From UHGV virus genome UHGV-0230593: a stretch of 11,080 bases of DNA. One strand, given 5' to 3'. The position numbers were made by a program, and so were the translations under genes. Under the pieces are notes generated by a model, which worked only from the letters and a program-made list of their open reading frames with translations, was not told where the DNA came from and made no database searches. This document shows, in pieces, positions 1 through 6,266 of this stretch. Position 1 is the stretch's first letter, and each line of letters begins with the position of its first letter. The stretch is from a virus.

Positions 1-5
1 AGGCT

Positions 6-161
6 ATGAAGCAGCAAAAGGCGATGTTAATCGCCCTGATCGTCATCTGTTTAACCGTCATAGTGACGGCACTGGTAACGAGGAAAGACCTCTGCGAGGT
101 ACGAATCCGAACCGGCCAGACGGAGGTCGCTGTCTTCACAGTCTACGAACCTGAGGAGTAA
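6..161 (+). CDS. hokD: Hok/Gef-family type I toxin (small membrane-killing peptide), HokD/RelF-like
   Basis: ATG at 6, TAA at 159-161; 51-aa translation MKQQKAMLIALIVICLTVIVTALVTRKDLCEVRIRTGQTEVAVFTVYEPEE has the single hydrophobic TM segment plus conserved C-terminal Cys and charged tail typical of Hok peptides; I recall it as near-identical to K-12 Qin HokD. The upstream mok/sok regulatory region would lie left of the window. Confidence 0.85.
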   Translation: MKQQKAMLIALIVICLTVIVTALVTRKDLCEVRIRTGQTEVAVFTVYEPEE

Positions 162-230
162 GAGACCAGGCGGGGGAGAAATCTCCAGCCACCTCTGATG
201 TGTCAGGCATCCTCAACGCACCCGCACTTA

Positions 231-250
231 ACCCGCTTCGGCGGGTTTTT
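231..250 (+). terminator. Rho-independent terminator downstream of hok
   Basis: Hairpin CCCGC(232-236)-TTCG-GCGGG(241-245) followed by TTTTT (246-250). Confidence 0.7.
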
Positions 251-262
251 GCATTAGTCTGG

Positions 263-294
263 TTGACAAAAACAGGAAAATGCGAAAATATAAG
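263..294 (+). promoter_or_regulatory. Putative sigma70 promoter for the 327..2061 operon
   Basis: TTGACA at 263-268 (perfect -35), then A/T-rich candidate -10 hexamers (AAATAT / TATAAG, 286-294) at 17-20 bp spacing, about 35 bp upstream of the ATG at 327. The -10 assignment is ambiguous. Confidence 0.35.
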
Positions 295-326
295 GTTTAC
301 GAATTCTAAAAAAAGCGAAACTTGAA

Positions 327-977
327 ATGAATGAAAATCAGTTAGCTCCTTGTTGGGAATTTCAACCTTATCTTGCTGAAAGCAATGTTCGCCAGTTGTT
401 GGCGGAGATCGCTAACGTACTTGAGCAGTTGTACTATCATAAGCACGTATTAGACAGCAACTGGTCTGAAGGTGTAAGGGCTTATGATTGGGTCAGAAAC
501 CATCTTATTCAAAATGAAGGCGCAATTCCTGGTCTTAAGATGATTTCCAAGGGGTTGGACTATGTAGTTGCTTTAAATAAAGTTCCGCTACAATTTACCA
601 AAGATTGCATTAATAACCCCAAAAAGAAACATCGCCTGCGTCGAAATAAAGTAGAGCATGAGCAGCTTTCATTGTTTGGTGATGTTGAGGCTGAGCAAGA
701 TATTACATGGCGAGTCATAGCGGAGCCATTTTTATCCGAAGAGGGAGATGGTGAATTAGAGTCCACACTGCCTCGTTGGGAGGTGGCTCTTGTTGGGTTT
801 AATATCTATGGTGCTCAGATTAGTATGGTTTCTCATCAATCTACAGCATCAATGCCACTTATGCCCCTTGACGGTAACACACTCCCTGGCGAAGCGGAGA
901 TTAATAAGGTGTCTCTTCGTCGGCGTACGAAGGATAAAATTTTGGATGTGAGCAGTAATGGAACATCAGGTGAATAA
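327..977 (+). CDS. Hypothetical protein, 216 aa, no family recognised; first gene of a two-gene cargo module
   Basis: ATG at 327, TAA at 975-977; uninterrupted ORF in a ~40% GC region flanked by ~52-55% GC prophage DNA; its last 20 nt overlap the start of the next gene (likely translational coupling). Contains an R-N-x3-H motif (RRNKVEH, nt 639-659). Confidence 0.7.
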   Translation: MNENQLAPCWEFQPYLAESNVRQLLAEIANVLEQLYYHKHVLDSNWSEGVRAYDWVRNHLIQNEGAIPGLKMISKGLDYVVALNKVPLQFTKDCINNPKKKHRLRRNKVEHEQLSLFGDVEAEQDITWRVIAEPFLSEEGDGELESTLPRWEVALVGFNIYGAQISMVSHQSTASMPLMPLDGNTLPGEAEINKVSLRRRTKDKILDVSSNGTSGE

Positions 978-2061
978 CTTCACTGAGTATCGAGGCGATA
1001 AGCTCAAACTAGCAAGAATGGCTGTTGGGCTTTCATGTGAAGAGTTGGCCGAAAAAATTGGCAAAACAAAACAATTCGTTAGCAAATTGGAGAAGGGATT
1101 TAGGCCATCAGAGCAATGCCTGGAGTTAATAGCCTCAGCTCTTATGATTAAGCCCGATTTTCTATTTACTGAGCGAAAATATGCTCTGGAAAGCGATGTT
1201 TGCCATTTTCGGAGTAAGAAGTCCAGGACTCAAACGCTGACTAATAGTGTCTTGGCCAGGGCTGAGATTCTTAATATTATAATTTCTGCTGTTGAAGGTG
1301 AAATCGAATTCCCTGATGTCAACATACCAGAGCACCCAGGAACTGAATTACTTACCCCGAATGATATTGAGCGAGTGGCAGAAGATTGTCGCCGTGCATG
1401 GAATCTAGGTCTTGGCCCTATATCATCAATGGTGAAATTGGCGGAGAGTTTGGGGGTAATCGTTGCGCATGTTACGGGAGTCGATGATCGTGTTGATGCA
1501 TTCACTGTTCACAATAACAGGCCTGTTATTATCAGGAACAATGTAAAAAAAAGCATATGTAGATTTCGCTCTGATTTAGGTCATGAGTTAGGGCATTTAG
1601 TAATGCATGAGGGCATAACTACTGGTGATAAACTTACGGAATCACAAGCTGATCACTTTTCTAGCGCCTTATTGGTTCCTAGGCTATCTTTCATTAAAGA
1701 ATTTCCACGAATACGAGGTAAGCAATTCGATTGGAGTGCTCTGGTTGAATTTAAGCTTAGATGGAAAATTAGCCTTAAAATGTGTATTTATCGAGCCAGT
1801 GCATTAGGACTATTGACCCAGGAACAGGCAAGAACTGGCTATATGCATCTTAATTCTAGAGGGTACACGAGAGTTGAACCAGGTGATGAACTTTTGCGCC
1901 ACGAAGAACCAAGTATGCTGTCCGAAGCGATTGACATGCTGGATGATGCAACTTGGTTAAGAATTCTTATGAAAACTGGCTTGAGTCAAGATTTAATTCG
2001 TGAGTTGTTCTCCATCAATCGACCTATTACAAATCCAAGAAATATTTTTCAGATTGTTTGA
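958..2061 (+). CDS. Fused XRE-family HTH / ImmA-IrrE (COG2856-type) zinc metallopeptidase, 367 aa
   Basis: ATG at 958 overlapping the upstream ORF; N-terminal HTH_3-like segment (LARMAVGLSCEELAEKIGKTKQFVSKLEKG...); central HEXXH motif HELGHLVMHEG (nt 1582-1596) in a context typical of ImmA/IrrE peptidases; stop TGA 2059-2061. The true start could be an internal Met (M21). Confidence 0.8.
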   Translation: MEHQVNNFTEYRGDKLKLARMAVGLSCEELAEKIGKTKQFVSKLEKGFRPSEQCLELIASALMIKPDFLFTERKYALESDVCHFRSKKSRTQTLTNSVLARAEILNIIISAVEGEIEFPDVNIPEHPGTELLTPNDIERVAEDCRRAWNLGLGPISSMVKLAESLGVIVAHVTGVDDRVDAFTVHNNRPVIIRNNVKKSICRFRSDLGHELGHLVMHEGITTGDKLTESQADHFSSALLVPRLSFIKEFPRIRGKQFDWSALVEFKLRWKISLKMCIYRASALGLLTQEQARTGYMHLNSRGYTRVEPGDELLRHEEPSMLSEAIDMLDDATWLRILMKTGLSQDLIRELFSINRPITNPRNIFQIV

Positions 2062-2066
2062 GCATA

Positions 2067-2090
2067 CCCGCTACGGCGGGTTTTGTTTTT
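2067..2090 (+). terminator. Rho-independent terminator after the HTH-peptidase gene
   Basis: Hairpin CCCGC(2067-2071)-TACG-GCGGG(2076-2080) followed by TTTTGTTTTT; almost the same hairpin as the hok terminator at 231-250. Confidence 0.7.
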
Positions 2091-2163
2091 TCCGGGCTTT
2101 TTGGTTTACAATCCGCACGCCAGCCTGAACAACTGGCACCTGCTGCGCCAGCAGAGAAAAACG

Positions 2164-2442
2164 ATGGCGCACAATACCAAATCACACAATTCTGATAATT
2201 CAGCCGTCTTTGCCAGCAGGCACGGGCGGCGTTTGCACGCATTTAAAACTCGCTGGTATCAGCACCCTCCATGCACTGAAGAACAGGCTGAATGGCTAAT
2301 TCAGAGCTACCGCAGACGTGGCTATGAGGTTCAGAAAGATCTCAGCCTCGACCGACTGCACTGGATAATCTCTGTGAGGCTCCCTTACTCCGAGCGCCCA
2401 CCGCGTCCATCCCGCACATTCCAGCAACGTATCTGGAGGTAA
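2164..2442 (+). CDS. Hypothetical small protein (92 aa) in the position occupied by rem in K-12 Qin
   Basis: ATG at 2164, downstream of the terminator and a weak AGAGAAA RBS; the 2083 start in the ORF track is a TTG inside the terminator T-run and is unlikely. Basic, His/Arg-rich product; no family recognised. Confidence 0.4.
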   Translation: MAHNTKSHNSDNSAVFASRHGRRLHAFKTRWYQHPPCTEEQAEWLIQSYRRRGYEVQKDLSLDRLHWIISVRLPYSERPPRPSRTFQQRIWR

Positions 2443-2443
2443 C

Positions 2444-3493
2444 GTGCGGGTATTACTTCGACCTGTTCTTGTGCCAGAACTCGGGCTGGTGATCGTTAAG
2501 CCGGGCCATGAATCCATGCCGGTATTCCAAAATACCCGGGTACTGGTGGAGCCGGAACCGAAAAGCATGCGTAATCTGCCGTCCGGGGTCGTTCCTGCCG
2601 TTCGCCAGCCGCTGGCGGAGGATAAATCATTACTGCCATTTTTCAGCGACGAACGAGTGATTCGTGCTGCTGGTGGCGCTGGCGCATTGTCTGACTGGTT
2701 ACTGCGCCATGTTAAATCCTGCCAGTGGCCACACGGCGATTATCACCACAGTGAAACCGTCATTCACCGTTATGGCGCTGGCGCGATGGTGTTGTGCTGG
2801 CACTGTGACAACCAGCTGCGTGACCAGACATCCGAATCACTCGGGCAACTTGCTCATCAAAACCTGTCAGCATGGATGATTGACGTCATACGCCATGCAA
2901 TGAATGGCACGCAGGAGCGGGAATTGTCGCTGGCTGAATTATCCTGGTGGGCGGTCTGCAATCAGGTGGCGGACGCGCTTCCGGAGGCAGTATTACGTCG
3001 TTCTCTGGGGTTACGTGCGGAAAAAATCCGCTCGGTGTATCGCGAAAGCGACATCATACCGGGAGAGCAGACCGCCACCAGCATACTGAAGCAGCGCACA
3101 AAAAATATTGCGCCGCCGTCTCACGCCCGCCAGCAACAGAACCCACCACAGGAAAAGACGGTGGTATGCATCACCGTTGATCCGGAGTCTCCGGAATCTT
3201 TCATGAGGCGACCTAAACGTCGCCGTTGGGTAAATGAGAAATATACGCGCTGGGTGAAGACACAGCCGTGTGCGTGTTGTGGTCAGCCAGCCGACGATCC
3301 CCATCACCTGATTGGTCACGGTCAGGGAGGGATGGGAACAAAGGCCCACGATATTTTCACGCTACCGTTGTGCCGGGAACATCACAACGAACTTCATGCG
3401 GATCCGCTGGCGTTCGAAGAAAAGCATGGTTCTCAGATTGATTTAATTTTTCGTTTTCTTGATCACGCCTTTGCAACTGGCGTGCTTGGGTAA
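2444..3493 (+). CDS. ydfU: DUF968-family prophage protein (YdfU-like), 349 aa, with Cys/His clusters
   Basis: GTG at 2444 preceded by GGAGGT (2435-2440); TAA 3491-3493. Length and position (upstream of rusA and Q) match YdfU-type proteins; C-terminal CxCC...HH...C..HH cluster (aa 276-318, nt 3269-3397). Confidence 0.75.
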   Translation: MRVLLRPVLVPELGLVIVKPGHESMPVFQNTRVLVEPEPKSMRNLPSGVVPAVRQPLAEDKSLLPFFSDERVIRAAGGAGALSDWLLRHVKSCQWPHGDYHHSETVIHRYGAGAMVLCWHCDNQLRDQTSESLGQLAHQNLSAWMIDVIRHAMNGTQERELSLAELSWWAVCNQVADALPEAVLRRSLGLRAEKIRSVYRESDIIPGEQTATSILKQRTKNIAPPSHARQQQNPPQEKTVVCITVDPESPESFMRRPKRRRWVNEKYTRWVKTQPCACCGQPADDPHHLIGHGQGGMGTKAHDIFTLPLCREHHNELHADPLAFEEKHGSQIDLIFRFLDHAFATGVLG

Positions 3494-3505
3494 AAGAGGT
3501 GACTG

Positions 3506-3865
3506 ATGCTCATAGATTTGGTTTTACCTTACCCGCCGACGGTGAACACTTACTGGCGACGCCGTGGCAGCACATATTTTATCTCGGAGGAGGGAAAGCG
3601 TTATCGCCGGGCTGTGGCGCTTATTGTTCGCCAGCAGCGGCTGAAATTAAGCCTGTCCGGAAGGCTGGTGATAAAGGTGATTGCAGAGCCACCGGATAAG
3701 CGTCGTCGCGACCTGGACAACATTCTGAAAGCACCGCTGGATGCGCTGACGCATGCGGGAGTGCTCATTGATGACGAGCAGTTTGATGAAATCAATATTG
3801 TACGTGGTCAGCCAGTATCTGGTGGACGGCTGGGTGTGAAGATTTACAAAATTGAGAGTGAGTGA
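3506..3865 (+). CDS. rusA: RusA-family Holliday junction resolvase
   Basis: ATG at 3506 with AAGAGG RBS (3494-3499); 119-aa translation ...LPYPPTVNTYWRRRG...DKRRRDLDNILKAPLDALTHAGVLIDDEQ... carries the RusA catalytic Asp-rich signature and RusA length. Confidence 0.9.
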   Translation: MLIDLVLPYPPTVNTYWRRRGSTYFISEEGKRYRRAVALIVRQQRLKLSLSGRLVIKVIAEPPDKRRRDLDNILKAPLDALTHAGVLIDDEQFDEINIVRGQPVSGGRLGVKIYKIESE

Positions 3866-6093: not shown

Positions 6094-6169
6094 GGCCCTT
6101 TAGCTCAGTGGTGAGAGCGAGCGACTCATAATCGCCAGGTCGCTGGTTCAAATCCAGCAAGGGCCACCA
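6094..6169 (+). tRNA. ileZ: tRNA-Ile (anticodon CAT, lysidine-type, reads AUA)
   Basis: 76-nt cloverleaf: acceptor GGCCCTT/AAGGGCC, D-arm GCTC...GAGC, anticodon loop CTCATAA (CAT at 6127-6129), T-loop TTCAAAT, 3' CCA. Near-identical to E. coli tRNA-Ile2 from memory; same triad as the Stx-phage ileZ-argN-argO cluster. Confidence 0.85.
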
Positions 6170-6176
6170 TCACATA

Positions 6177-6253
6177 CCGCCATTAGCTCATCAGGACAGA
6201 GCGCCAGCCTTCGAAGCTGGTTGCGCGGGGGTCGGGTCCCCGATGGCGGTCCA
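6177..6253 (+). tRNA. argN: tRNA-Arg (anticodon TCG), atypical T-loop
   Basis: Acceptor CCGCCAT/ATGGCGG, D-stem GCTC/GAGC, anticodon stem CCAGC/GCTGG with loop CTTCGAA (TCG at 6211-6213), T-stem CGGGG/CCCCG with non-canonical T-loop GTCGGGT, discriminator T, CCA. Confidence 0.65.
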
Positions 6254-6266
6254 TTATCGGTATTCA

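What the first reader, a model, noticed from the sequence alone, without database searches (positions are those of the whole stretch)
251..2090. Uncharacterised two-gene cargo module: 216-aa unknown protein translationally coupled to a fused XRE-HTH/ImmA-IrrE metallopeptidase
Seen in sequence: two overlapping + strand genes (327..977 and 958..2061, 20-nt overlap) with their own TTGACA promoter-like element and terminator, in a ~40% GC block set into ~52-55% GC prophage DNA. The downstream product has an XRE HTH and an HEXXH (HELGH) ImmA/IrrE-type protease motif; the upstream product matches no family I recognise. Established knowledge: ImmR/ImmA and IrrE/DdrO-type HTH-protease pairs act as signal-cleaved switches, and Xre-COG2856 fusions are frequently predicted antitoxins or regulators of toxin and defence modules. 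Inference: this is a moron encoding a candidate toxin-antitoxin, abortive-infection or superinfection-exclusion system in which the 216-aa protein is the effector and the HTH-peptidase the regulator or sensor.
Basis: partly seen in the sequence, partly recalled or inferred. Interest (0 to 1): 0.85.

Follow-up and report, generated by a model that had tools for sequence, protein, structure and literature searches.

The report
Rosmer toxin-antitoxin defence cassette in prophage
The two overlapping genes are a real, self-contained cargo cassette of an E. coli lambdoid prophage, but they belong to the already catalogued Rosmer (RmrT/RmrA) toxin-antitoxin/anti-phage family, close to the tested Vibrio pair Vmi480/Vmi470; the one new lead is that the toxin carries a textbook DNA sliding-clamp-binding motif.

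Summary
Two overlapping + strand genes (327-977 and 958-2061) form a 41.5% GC block in 52-55% GC prophage DNA, with a TTGACA element upstream and a terminator downstream.

The module is not uncharacterised. PADLOC profiles call the 216-aa protein RmrT (E 3.6e-24) and the 367-aa HTH/M78-peptidase protein RmrA (E 7e-107), which is the Rosmer toxin-antitoxin defence system. The pair is homologous to an orthologue of Vibrio Vmi480/Vmi470 (28% and 46% identity). In that Vibrio pair the upstream protein kills E. coli and the HTH-peptidase neutralises it.

Related phages have the same hok-ydfU junction empty, so this is an 1,835-bp insertion flanked by a duplicated terminator hairpin. All 79 assessable viral loci with an RmrA relative carry an RmrT-family gene directly upstream. 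The cassette also carries a conserved promoter and a tandem-repeat operator.

The new lead is RmrT's conserved QLSLF motif, which is the exact beta-clamp-binding consensus. Another Rosmer toxin, RipA, targets DnaN. I judge clamp binding about 35% likely.

Verdict: a new member of a known kind, of moderate interest.

The parts
230..250 (+). hok terminator hairpin. It is the left copy of the ~19-bp duplicated sequence ACCCGCT(T/A)CGGCGGGTTTT that flanks the inserted cassette.
   Evidence: Terminator scan. Empty-site phage L002 has a single copy that aligns to both window 231-249 and 2066-2084.
261..320 (+). Conserved promoter/operator leader. It holds a -35 TTGACA (263-268), a 17-nt spacer and a -10 AAATAT (286-291). 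Two 27-nt direct repeats, GGTTGACAAAAACAGGAAAATGCGAAA (261-287) and GGTTTACGAATTCTAAAAAAAGCGAAA (294-320), lie 33 bp apart and are the putative RmrA operators.
   Evidence: Direct repeat found. The 66-nt leader is 83-91% identical to the Limnobaculum and Serratia cassettes, whose coding DNA is only 63-68% identical. Tandem GGTTGACAAA-N10-TGCAC repeats are seen in many of the distant subfamilies examined (e.g. L083-L094; not evident in L065, L067, L077). Binding by RmrA is inferred.
327..977 (+). rmrT, encoding a 216-aa soluble, acidic (pI 5.4) predicted toxin of the Vmi480 family.
   Evidence: PADLOC RmrT PDLC03929, E 3.6e-24. 28% identity (E 6e-15) and hhalign probability 97.4% to the Vmi480 orthologue. 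dN/dS 0.24 against the E. coli 042 allele. No transmembrane segment: maximum KD19 is 0.98.
663..677 (+). Codons for QLSLF (RmrT residues 113-117), an exact match to the bacterial beta-clamp-binding consensus QL[SD]LF. It sits in a charged segment of lower model confidence.
   Evidence: Invariant in close relatives. Q is present in 34/40 and L4 in 32/40 of the non-redundant family. Chance occurrence is 2.9e-4 by shuffling. Consensus taken from PMC9690074. Function is inferred.
958..2061 (+). rmrA, encoding a 367-aa antitoxin/repressor. It has an XRE HTH (residues 13-70, nt 994-1167), a conserved CHFRS linker, an M78/ImmA-IrrE Zn-peptidase (residues 176-281, nt 1483-1800; HELGH at nt 1582-1596) and a C-terminal domain.
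   Evidence: Pfam. PADLOC RmrA PDLC03943, E 7e-107. 46% identity (E 4e-121) to the Vmi470 orthologue. 29% identity (E 3e-35) to the verified E. coli OLC-716 RmrA. H209, E210, H213, H217 and the A-x-x-F-x-x-A-x-L-x-P signature are invariant. dN/dS 0.04.
2066..2091 (+). Intrinsic terminator hairpin plus T-run. It is the right copy of the duplicated hairpin and the right boundary of the 1,835-bp insertion.

Best explanation
The region is a Rosmer (RmrT/RmrA) type II-like toxin-antitoxin / abortive-infection cassette of the Vmi480/Vmi470 subfamily. It is carried as a moron in the nin region of an E. coli lambdoid prophage.

Proposed working, with each step marked:
1. In the lysogen the cassette is transcribed from its own promoter (-35 TTGACA / -10 AAATAT). 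(Inferred.)
2. RmrA binds the two tandem GGTT(G/T)AC...GCGAAA repeats through its XRE HTH and autorepresses the operon. (Inferred from the conservation and position of the repeats.)
3. rmrA overlaps the end of rmrT by 20 nt, so the two proteins are made in a fixed ratio. (The overlap is shown; the coupling is inferred.)
4. RmrT is a soluble toxin and RmrA neutralises it. (Shown for the homologous pair Vmi480/Vmi470, not for this pair.)
5. Neutralisation probably needs the Zn-peptidase domain and host ClpXP, as reported for other Rosmer systems. (Inferred.)
6. When a superinfecting phage perturbs RmrA, ClpXP or host expression, free RmrT arrests the cell. (Inferred.)
7. My preferred effector mechanism is binding of the DnaN beta-clamp through the conserved QLSLF motif, which stalls replication of host and phage. 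(Inferred, about 35% likely.)
For: - PADLOC RmrT and RmrA hits. All 48 family members match the same RmrT model.
- Homology to the Vmi480/Vmi470 orthologue located with the paper's own primers. That pair is a demonstrated toxin and antidote in E. coli (PMC4671572).
- RmrA is 29% identical to the verified defence RmrA of E. coli OLC-716. Rosmer was defined in 10.1101/2022.05.11.491447.
- Strict pairing is seen in E. coli, Serratia, Limnobaculum, Vibrio, 3 metagenomic contigs and 79/79 viral loci.
- Both genes are under purifying selection.
- Empty sites and alternative cargos occur at the same junction.
- The leader and operator repeats are conserved.
- The Zn-ligand motif is intact.
- Relatives sit in the P2 gpA-portal hotspot and next to Shedu, Fic and integrase genes.
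- QLSLF conservation and chance level.
- The Rosmer toxin RipA targets the DnaN pocket and depends on ClpX (PMC12795458). RmrA and ClpX are essential in Pectobacteriaceae that carry Rosmer (PMC13566846). clpP is essential in E. coli E101 because of a Vmi480-like prophage TA (10.1101/2020.05.25.114553).
Against: - No experiment exists on this protein pair. Identity to Vmi480 is only 28%.
- Anti-phage activity has been shown only for Rosmer systems whose toxins are unrelated in sequence.
- Rosmer toxins are heterogeneous. The phage Kita RmrT depolarises membranes, so the mechanism cannot be transferred between them.
- The QLSLF motif degenerates to [DQ][LM]F in the 197-213-aa subgroups.
- The motif lies partly in a predicted helix, so its conservation could be structural.
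- The promoter's -10 is weak and was not called by the scan.
- The E101 toxin could not be shown to belong to this family.
Confidence: 0.85

Rival explanations
1. The cassette is purely an addiction or stabilisation module. It would be a TA pair that keeps the prophage, or this cargo slot, from being lost through post-segregational killing, with no anti-phage function.
For: Vmi480/Vmi470 was found on a mobilisable genomic island and characterised only as a TA pair. The neighbouring gene is hokD, another killer/stability module. rmrA is essential in the Pectobacteriaceae strains that carry Rosmer, and the pneumococcal antitoxin ripB can be deleted only when ripA is absent. No defence assay exists for this subfamily.
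Against: Relatives lie in recognised prophage defence hotspots and next to defence genes. Other Rosmer systems do protect against phages. The slot shows cargo turnover typical of defence morons. The two roles are not exclusive.
Confidence: 0.25
2. RmrT is a PD-(D/E)xK-type nuclease toxin that degrades DNA, rather than a clamp binder.
Confidence: 0.12
3. The HTH-peptidase is an ImmR/ImmA- or IrrE/DdrO-like damage-sensing switch that regulates prophage induction or other prophage genes. On this reading the 216-aa protein would be an accessory factor, not a toxin.
For: The M78 ImmA/IrrE domain and XRE HTH are shared with those switches. PADLOC also gives weaker capP/capH hits.
Against: The HTH and peptidase are fused in one protein, not a separate repressor and protease. 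The cassette lies in the nin region, far from the immunity region and integrase of this prophage. It is absent from otherwise similar phages. It moves as a unit between Q-holin, hok-ydfU and P2 hotspots. The homologous upstream protein is lethal on its own.
Confidence: 0.05

Closest known systems
Vmi480/Vmi470 toxin-antitoxin pair of Vibrio mimicus MGIVmi1 (Luo et al. 2015, PMC4671572)
   Same: Same gene order: toxin first, then a ~365-aa XRE-HTH/Zn-peptidase. RmrA is 46% identical over 347 aa. RmrT is 28% identical, with hhalign probability 97.4% over 179 columns. Both match the same PADLOC RmrT model. Toxin lengths are about 200 aa.
   Different: The genes overlap by 20 nt here, against a 5-bp gap in Vibrio. 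The carrier is a lambdoid prophage nin region rather than a mobilisable genomic island. The motif is QLSLF here and QISLEL in Vmi480. The pair in this window has not been tested.
RosmerTA (RmrT/RmrA) anti-phage system, verified example from E. coli OLC-716 (Millman et al. 2022)
   Same: RmrA architecture and sequence are shared (29% identity, E 3e-35, over about 300 aa). It is a two-gene operon with a toxin of unknown function. Delta-rmrA could not be obtained there.
   Different: The toxins are unrelated in sequence (BLASTP E 6.6; hhalign probability below 2%). The gene order in the OLC-716 record was not checked. Defence has been shown there but not here.
RipA/RipB (Spr1630/Spr1629) of Streptococcus pneumoniae, a Rosmer-family TA
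   Same: The antitoxin is an XRE-HTH + ImmA-like protein. Our RmrA hits the NCBIfam spr1629 model at E 2e-44 but scores below its cut-off. That toxin targets the DnaN hydrophobic pocket and its control needs ClpX, which fits the QLSLF motif found here.
   Different: It is chromosomal and Gram-positive. Membership of the spr1629 equivalog is not met (152 bits against a cut-off of 335).
SocAB type VI TA of Caulobacter crescentus
   Same: This is a resemblance in how it works only. SocB blocks replication by binding the beta-clamp cleft through a clamp-binding motif (PMC9690074). From my own knowledge of Aakre et al. 2013, ClpXP is needed to keep the toxin in check, which parallels the ClpX/ClpP dependence reported for Rosmer systems.
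   Different: No sequence relationship is claimed or tested here. As I recall it, SocA is a small proteolytic adaptor rather than an HTH-peptidase. Clamp binding by RmrT is unproven.
PD-lambda-2 (Vassallo et al. 2022)
   Same: It contains an Xre-HTH/peptidase fusion downstream of a toxin-like gene in an E. coli defence system.
   Different: It has three components. The upstream gene is HigB-like, and there the Xre-peptidase itself was the toxic part, rescued by the upstream protein. That polarity is the reverse of Vmi480/470.

Membership tests
Rosmer (RmrT/RmrA) | RmrA has an N-terminal XRE-type HTH fused to a C-terminal M78 (ImmA/IrrE, COG2856) Zn-peptidase with an intact HExxH | tested here: met
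   Pfam HTH_3 + Peptidase_M78. PADLOC RmrA PDLC03943 E 7e-107, plus 13 further RmrA models. HELGH 209-213 and the downstream signature are invariant.
Rosmer (RmrT/RmrA) | An adjacent co-oriented gene encodes a protein that matches one of the RmrT toxin families | tested here: met
   PADLOC RmrT PDLC03929 E 3.6e-24, covering 5-190 of 198 profile positions. The genes overlap by 20 nt.
Rosmer (RmrT/RmrA) | The two genes are conserved as a pair across genomes | tested here: met
   79/79 viral loci, plus Serratia, Limnobaculum, Vibrio, 3 metagenomic contigs and further E. coli prophages.
Rosmer (RmrT/RmrA) | RmrT is toxic and RmrA neutralises it | not testable with these tools
   Shown only for the homologue Vmi480/Vmi470. 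Supported indirectly by purifying selection on both genes.
Rosmer (RmrT/RmrA) | The system confers resistance to phage infection | not testable with these tools
   Shown for E. coli OLC-716 and Gordonia phage Kita systems, whose toxins are different. No data exist for this subfamily.
spr1629-family repressor/antitoxin (NCBIfam NF052239 equivalog) | Score above the curated cut-off of 335 bits | tested here: not met
   152 bits, E 2e-44. Related, but not an equivalog.
ImmR/ImmA or IrrE/DdrO switch | A separate HTH repressor is cleaved by a stand-alone M78 protease that controls element induction or the damage response | tested here: not met
   The HTH and protease are fused. The cassette is in the nin region, away from the immunity and integrase genes.
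PD-(D/E)xK nuclease superfamily (for RmrT) | A restriction-endonuclease-like alpha/beta core carrying conserved D...(D/E)xK catalytic residues on the central strands | tested here: inconclusive
Beta-clamp-binding proteins (for RmrT) | A QL[SD]LF / QLxLxL linear motif that binds the DnaN hydrophobic cleft | tested here: inconclusive
   The motif is present exactly (QLSLF 113-117), conserved, and unlikely by chance at 2.9e-4. Binding was not testable. The motif is degenerate in some subgroups.

The most novel reading that the evidence does not exclude
The Vmi480-type RmrT toxin, and possibly Rosmer toxins more generally, would be a beta-sliding-clamp poison. It would dock into the DnaN cleft through its conserved QLSLF clamp-binding motif and be held in check by RmrA together with ClpXP. 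That would make Rosmer a widespread prophage-borne analogue of Caulobacter SocAB that aborts infection by freezing clamp-dependent replication. It would also explain how the Vibrio counterselection marker vmi480 kills cells.

Two observations support this reading. The sequence-unrelated verified RmrT family of E. coli OLC-716 also has a conserved Q-L-x-[LF]-x-[LF] / NLDLF motif. The pneumococcal Rosmer toxin RipA maps genetically to the same DnaN pocket.
Probability: 0.33. Interest if true: 0.65.

Novelty: new member of a known kind. Interest (0 to 1): 0.4.

Why it matters
As an annotation result it is routine. PADLOC-type tools would label the pair Rosmer, and about 4% of complete E. coli genomes carry it (237 of 5,426).

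It still matters in three modest ways:
- It links the catalogued but mechanistically opaque Rosmer family to the 2015 Vmi480/Vmi470 experiments. It also defines a coherent gammaproteobacterial subfamily with a conserved promoter/operator.
- It documents the hok-ydfU junction of lambdoid prophages as a cargo slot bounded by a duplicated terminator. Diverged Rosmer alleles, a lipoprotein gene and rem alternate in that slot.
- It gives a concrete, cheap-to-test hypothesis for how this toxin kills, namely clamp binding via QLSLF. This would connect the reported ClpX/ClpP essentiality in Rosmer-carrying strains with the SocAB paradigm.

Tried and rejected
- Megablast and tblastn of the module against the INPHARED phage collection found nothing. 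The module is seen only in prophages and IMG/VR contigs.
- Pfam and NCBIfam gave nothing for RmrT. The PDB sequence search was empty.
- afdb50 was not available.
- The search for related loci with the divergent RmrT alignment failed because no stretch was conserved enough.
- I tried to identify the E. coli E101 toxin (WP_001179380.1), which makes clpP essential, as a member of this family. Its accession and sequence could not be retrieved, and a profile search found no further E. coli members. Subgroup members with T46 in the conserved DxNY-T motif exist, but the E. coli loci examined carry other accessions. The link is left open.
- Remote homology between this RmrT family and the verified OLC-716 RmrT family was not significant (hhalign probability below 2%), although the motifs are co-linear.
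- The membrane-toxin idea was rejected because there is no hydrophobic segment.
- The internal promoter-like site at 1252-1280 is at chance level.
Full report
**1. Observation**

The window contains two + strand ORFs, 327..977 (216 aa) and 958..2061 (367 aa), that overlap by 20 nt. GC content of the block 250-2084 is 0.415, against 0.55 on the left and about 0.52 on the right.

The 367-aa product has HTH_3 (residues 16-69) and Peptidase_M78/IrrE (residues 176-281), with HELGH at residues 209-213. The 216-aa product has no Pfam or NCBIfam match. It is soluble and acidic, with no hydrophobic segment.

A terminator-like hairpin lies at 2066-2081 and a nearly identical one at 230-247. TTGACA is at 263-268. 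The promoter scan did not call it, because the best -10 (AAATAT, 17-nt spacer) matches only 3 of 6 positions.

**2. Context**

The window is 99% identical to a lambdoid prophage integrated next to potC in E. coli 14EC001. The gene order there is hokD, then the two genes, a small ORF, DUF968 (ydfU-like), RusA, a Q-like antiterminator, a DNA methyltransferase, three tRNAs, a SASA esterase and the lysis genes. The two genes are annotated there only as 'hypothetical protein' and 'helix-turn-helix domain-containing protein'.

The 1.84-kb module occurs in 237 of 5,426 complete E. coli genomes. Nine are at least 99% identical and 224 are about 94% identical. In the one 94%-allele genome examined, E. 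coli 042, the module sits at the same hokD-DUF968 site.

**3. It is inserted cargo**

I built a query that joins window 1-250 to 2091-2500. It matches phages Evi, vB_EcoS-640R1 and vB_EcoS-813R8 in one uninterrupted piece. In 640R1 a single hairpin, ACCCGCTTCGGCGGGTTTT, aligns to both window 231-249 and 2066-2084. The module is therefore an 1,835-bp insertion bounded by a duplicated terminator.

Other cargos sit in the same slot:
- rem in the PPompW/Stx2a phages.
- A 130-aa lipoprotein gene in phage 689R5, together with a 100-nt remnant of the rmrA 3' end.
- A strongly diverged allele of the same two-gene system in IMG/VR loci L072-L080, whose RmrA is only 44% identical. It is flanked by the same hok sequence and the same duplicated hairpin.

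This slot is a cargo hotspot.

**4. Identity**

PADLOC-DB profiles match the 216-aa protein as RmrT (PDLC03929, E 3.6e-24, near full length). They match the 367-aa protein as RmrA (PDLC03943, E 7e-107, plus 13 further RmrA models). These are the two components of the Rosmer system.

[quoted passage not shown] Ernits et al. describe RmrA as an ImmA-protease antitoxin paired with many different RmrT toxins.

Our RmrA is 29% identical (E 3e-35) to the verified E. coli OLC-716 RmrA. Our RmrT is unrelated to that system's toxin.

**5. The toxin family and the Vmi480 link**

A full HMMER profile search of 1.84 billion representative proteins found only 51 clusters of roughly 200-aa proteins. They come from Enterobacterales, Aeromonas, Vibrio and Pseudomonas, and all are annotated as hypothetical. 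All 48 aligned members hit the same PADLOC RmrT model, and none has a Pfam family.

The literature cited for Rosmer led to Vmi480/Vmi470 of Vibrio mimicus. This is a 198-aa toxin that is lethal to E. coli, plus a 362-aa HTH/Zn-peptidase antidote, separated by a 5-bp gap. I took the published cloning primers and scanned the genome collection with them. This recovered a Vibrio thalassae locus whose two ORFs match all four primer ends, both lengths and the 5-bp spacing.

Against that orthologue:
- Our RmrT is 28% identical (E 6e-15), with hhalign probability 97.4% over 179 columns.
- Our RmrA is 46% identical (E 4e-121).

The window's module is therefore a member of the Vmi480/Vmi470 subfamily of Rosmer.

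**6. Co-occurrence and selection**

The pair is intact in every context examined:
- Serratia and Limnobaculum prophages, where it sits between Q and the holin.
- Three metagenomic contigs whose toxins are only 23-27% identical to ours, next to integrase, Fic, Shedu-like and NA-iREase genes.
- E. coli P2-like prophages, in the gpA-portal hotspot.
- 79 of 79 assessable IMG/VR loci that encode an RmrA relative of at least 39% identity. Every upstream ORF matches the RmrT family HMM, with E from 1e-22 to 1e-75.

Between the two main E. coli alleles, dN/dS is 0.24 for rmrT and 0.04 for rmrA.

**7. Regulatory leader**

The 66 nt upstream of rmrT are 83-91% identical between the E. coli, Serratia and Limnobaculum cassettes. 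Their coding DNA is only 63-68% identical, and the DNA further upstream is unrelated.

The leader contains two 27-nt direct repeats 33 bp apart: GGTTGACAAAAACAGGAAAATGCGAAA and GGTTTACGAATTCTAAAAAAAGCGAAA. Many of the distant subfamilies examined show the same design, two GGTTGACAAA-N10-TGCAC units. The first supplies a -35 TTGACA, followed after 17 nt by an xAxTAT -10. The second lies just downstream of the -10.

I infer a sigma-70 promoter with two tandem RmrA operators, that is, autorepression. This is not shown.

**8. How the toxin may act**

An AlphaFold model built on the 48-sequence alignment has mean pLDDT 80.5 and pTM 0.71. It shows two long helices followed by a six-stranded sheet.

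The most telling feature is a linear motif. ExxQLSLF (residues 110-117) is invariant in close relatives, and QLSLF is an exact match to the bacterial beta-clamp-binding consensus QL(S/D)LF (PMC9690074).
- Composition-preserving shuffles of RmrT produce such a match in 2.9e-4 of trials.
- In the non-redundant family, Q is kept in 34/40 and the fourth-position L in 32/40, while position 3 varies. That is the conservation pattern expected of a clamp-binding motif.
- The motif lies in a highly charged stretch with lower model confidence.

Independent literature fits this reading:
- The pneumococcal Rosmer toxin RipA interacts with DnaN. It is suppressed by substitutions in the DnaN hydrophobic pocket, and its control depends on ClpX.
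- rmrA and clpX are essential exactly in the Pectobacteriaceae strains that carry Rosmer.
- A Vmi480-like prophage TA makes clpP essential in E. coli E101.
- SocB of Caulobacter kills by binding the clamp cleft through a clamp-binding motif.
- The sequence-unrelated verified RmrT family also has a conserved Q-L-x-[LF]-x-[LF] / NLDLF motif. For a single sequence a relaxed pattern of that kind arises by chance in about 4% of shuffles.

Caveats:
- In the 197-213-aa subgroups the motif shrinks to [DQ][LM]F.
- Part of it is modelled as helix.
- Rosmer toxins are mechanistically diverse, and the phage Kita RmrT depolarises membranes.

I put the clamp-binding reading at about one in three.

**9. Comparison, novelty and verdict**

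The module meets every sequence-level defining feature of Rosmer. Toxicity, neutralisation and defence cannot be tested here.

It does not meet three other memberships. It scores below the NCBIfam spr1629 equivalog cut-off. It lacks the two-protein ImmR/ImmA or IrrE/DdrO architecture. It lacks the catalytic signature of PD-(D/E)xK nucleases.

It is a new, untested member of a known kind, not a new kind of system. What remains of interest is the Vmi480 link, the conserved operator design, the terminator-bounded cargo slot and the testable clamp-binding hypothesis.

Overall interest is 0.4.

Noticed in passing
window 230-250 and 2066-2091; loci L002, L003, L004, L072: The hok-ydfU junction of lambdoid prophages is a cargo slot bounded by a duplicated terminator hairpin. 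It is empty in phages Evi, 640R1 and 813R8. It holds rem in PPompW/Stx2a phages and a 130-aa lipoprotein gene in phage 689R5. In L072-L080 it holds a Rosmer allele whose RmrA is only 44% identical to ours.
   Followed up: partly
L003 1104-1203 (phage vB_EcoS-689R5) versus window 1968-2065: Phage 689R5 keeps about 100 nt homologous to the 3' end of rmrA, next to an unrelated lipoprotein gene. This looks like a scar of cargo replacement by recombination inside the cassette.
   Followed up: partly
window 6819-7694 and 7580-8791: The NanS-p-like SASA carbohydrate esterase is split into two overlapping ORFs in the window. In E. coli 14EC001 it is one intact 1,953-nt gene. Overall the window differs from that prophage by 84 mismatches and 16 gap openings over 10 kb. 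The split could be a frameshift, a pseudogene or a sequencing error.
   Followed up: no
window 6094-6340 and 6448-6645: Three tRNA genes, annotated Ile, Arg, Arg in the near-identical E. coli 14EC001 prophage, and a full-length STnc100 sRNA (Rfam RF02076, 135.7 bits) lie between the DNA methyltransferase and the esterase. This is the position occupied by stx in Stx phages.
   Followed up: no
window 6-161: A HokD-type type I toxin gene lies immediately upstream, so two killer modules sit side by side. The hok terminator is the sequence that is duplicated around the Rosmer cassette.
   Followed up: partly
E. coli OLC-716 RmrT residues 143-148 (sequence from the Millman supplement) and its homologues P0156-P0197: The experimentally verified Rosmer toxin family is unrelated to ours by hhalign. 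It nevertheless has a conserved Q-L-x-[LF]-x-[LF] motif (NLDLF in distant members) that resembles the hexapeptide clamp-binding motif. In a forced global alignment its motifs are co-linear with those of the window's family.
   Followed up: partly
L097 (E. coli ABWA45) 2129-3858; L098 2040-3769: Another subgroup of the same RmrT/RmrA family occupies the P2-like prophage hotspot between the replication endonuclease gene and the portal gene in a few E. coli genomes.
   Followed up: partly
window 940-977: The RmrT C-terminus (...DV..NGTSG[ED]) is unusually conserved among Enterobacterales homologues. The reason is most likely that these codons overlap the start and first codons of rmrA (ATGGAACATCAGGTGA).
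   Followed up: no
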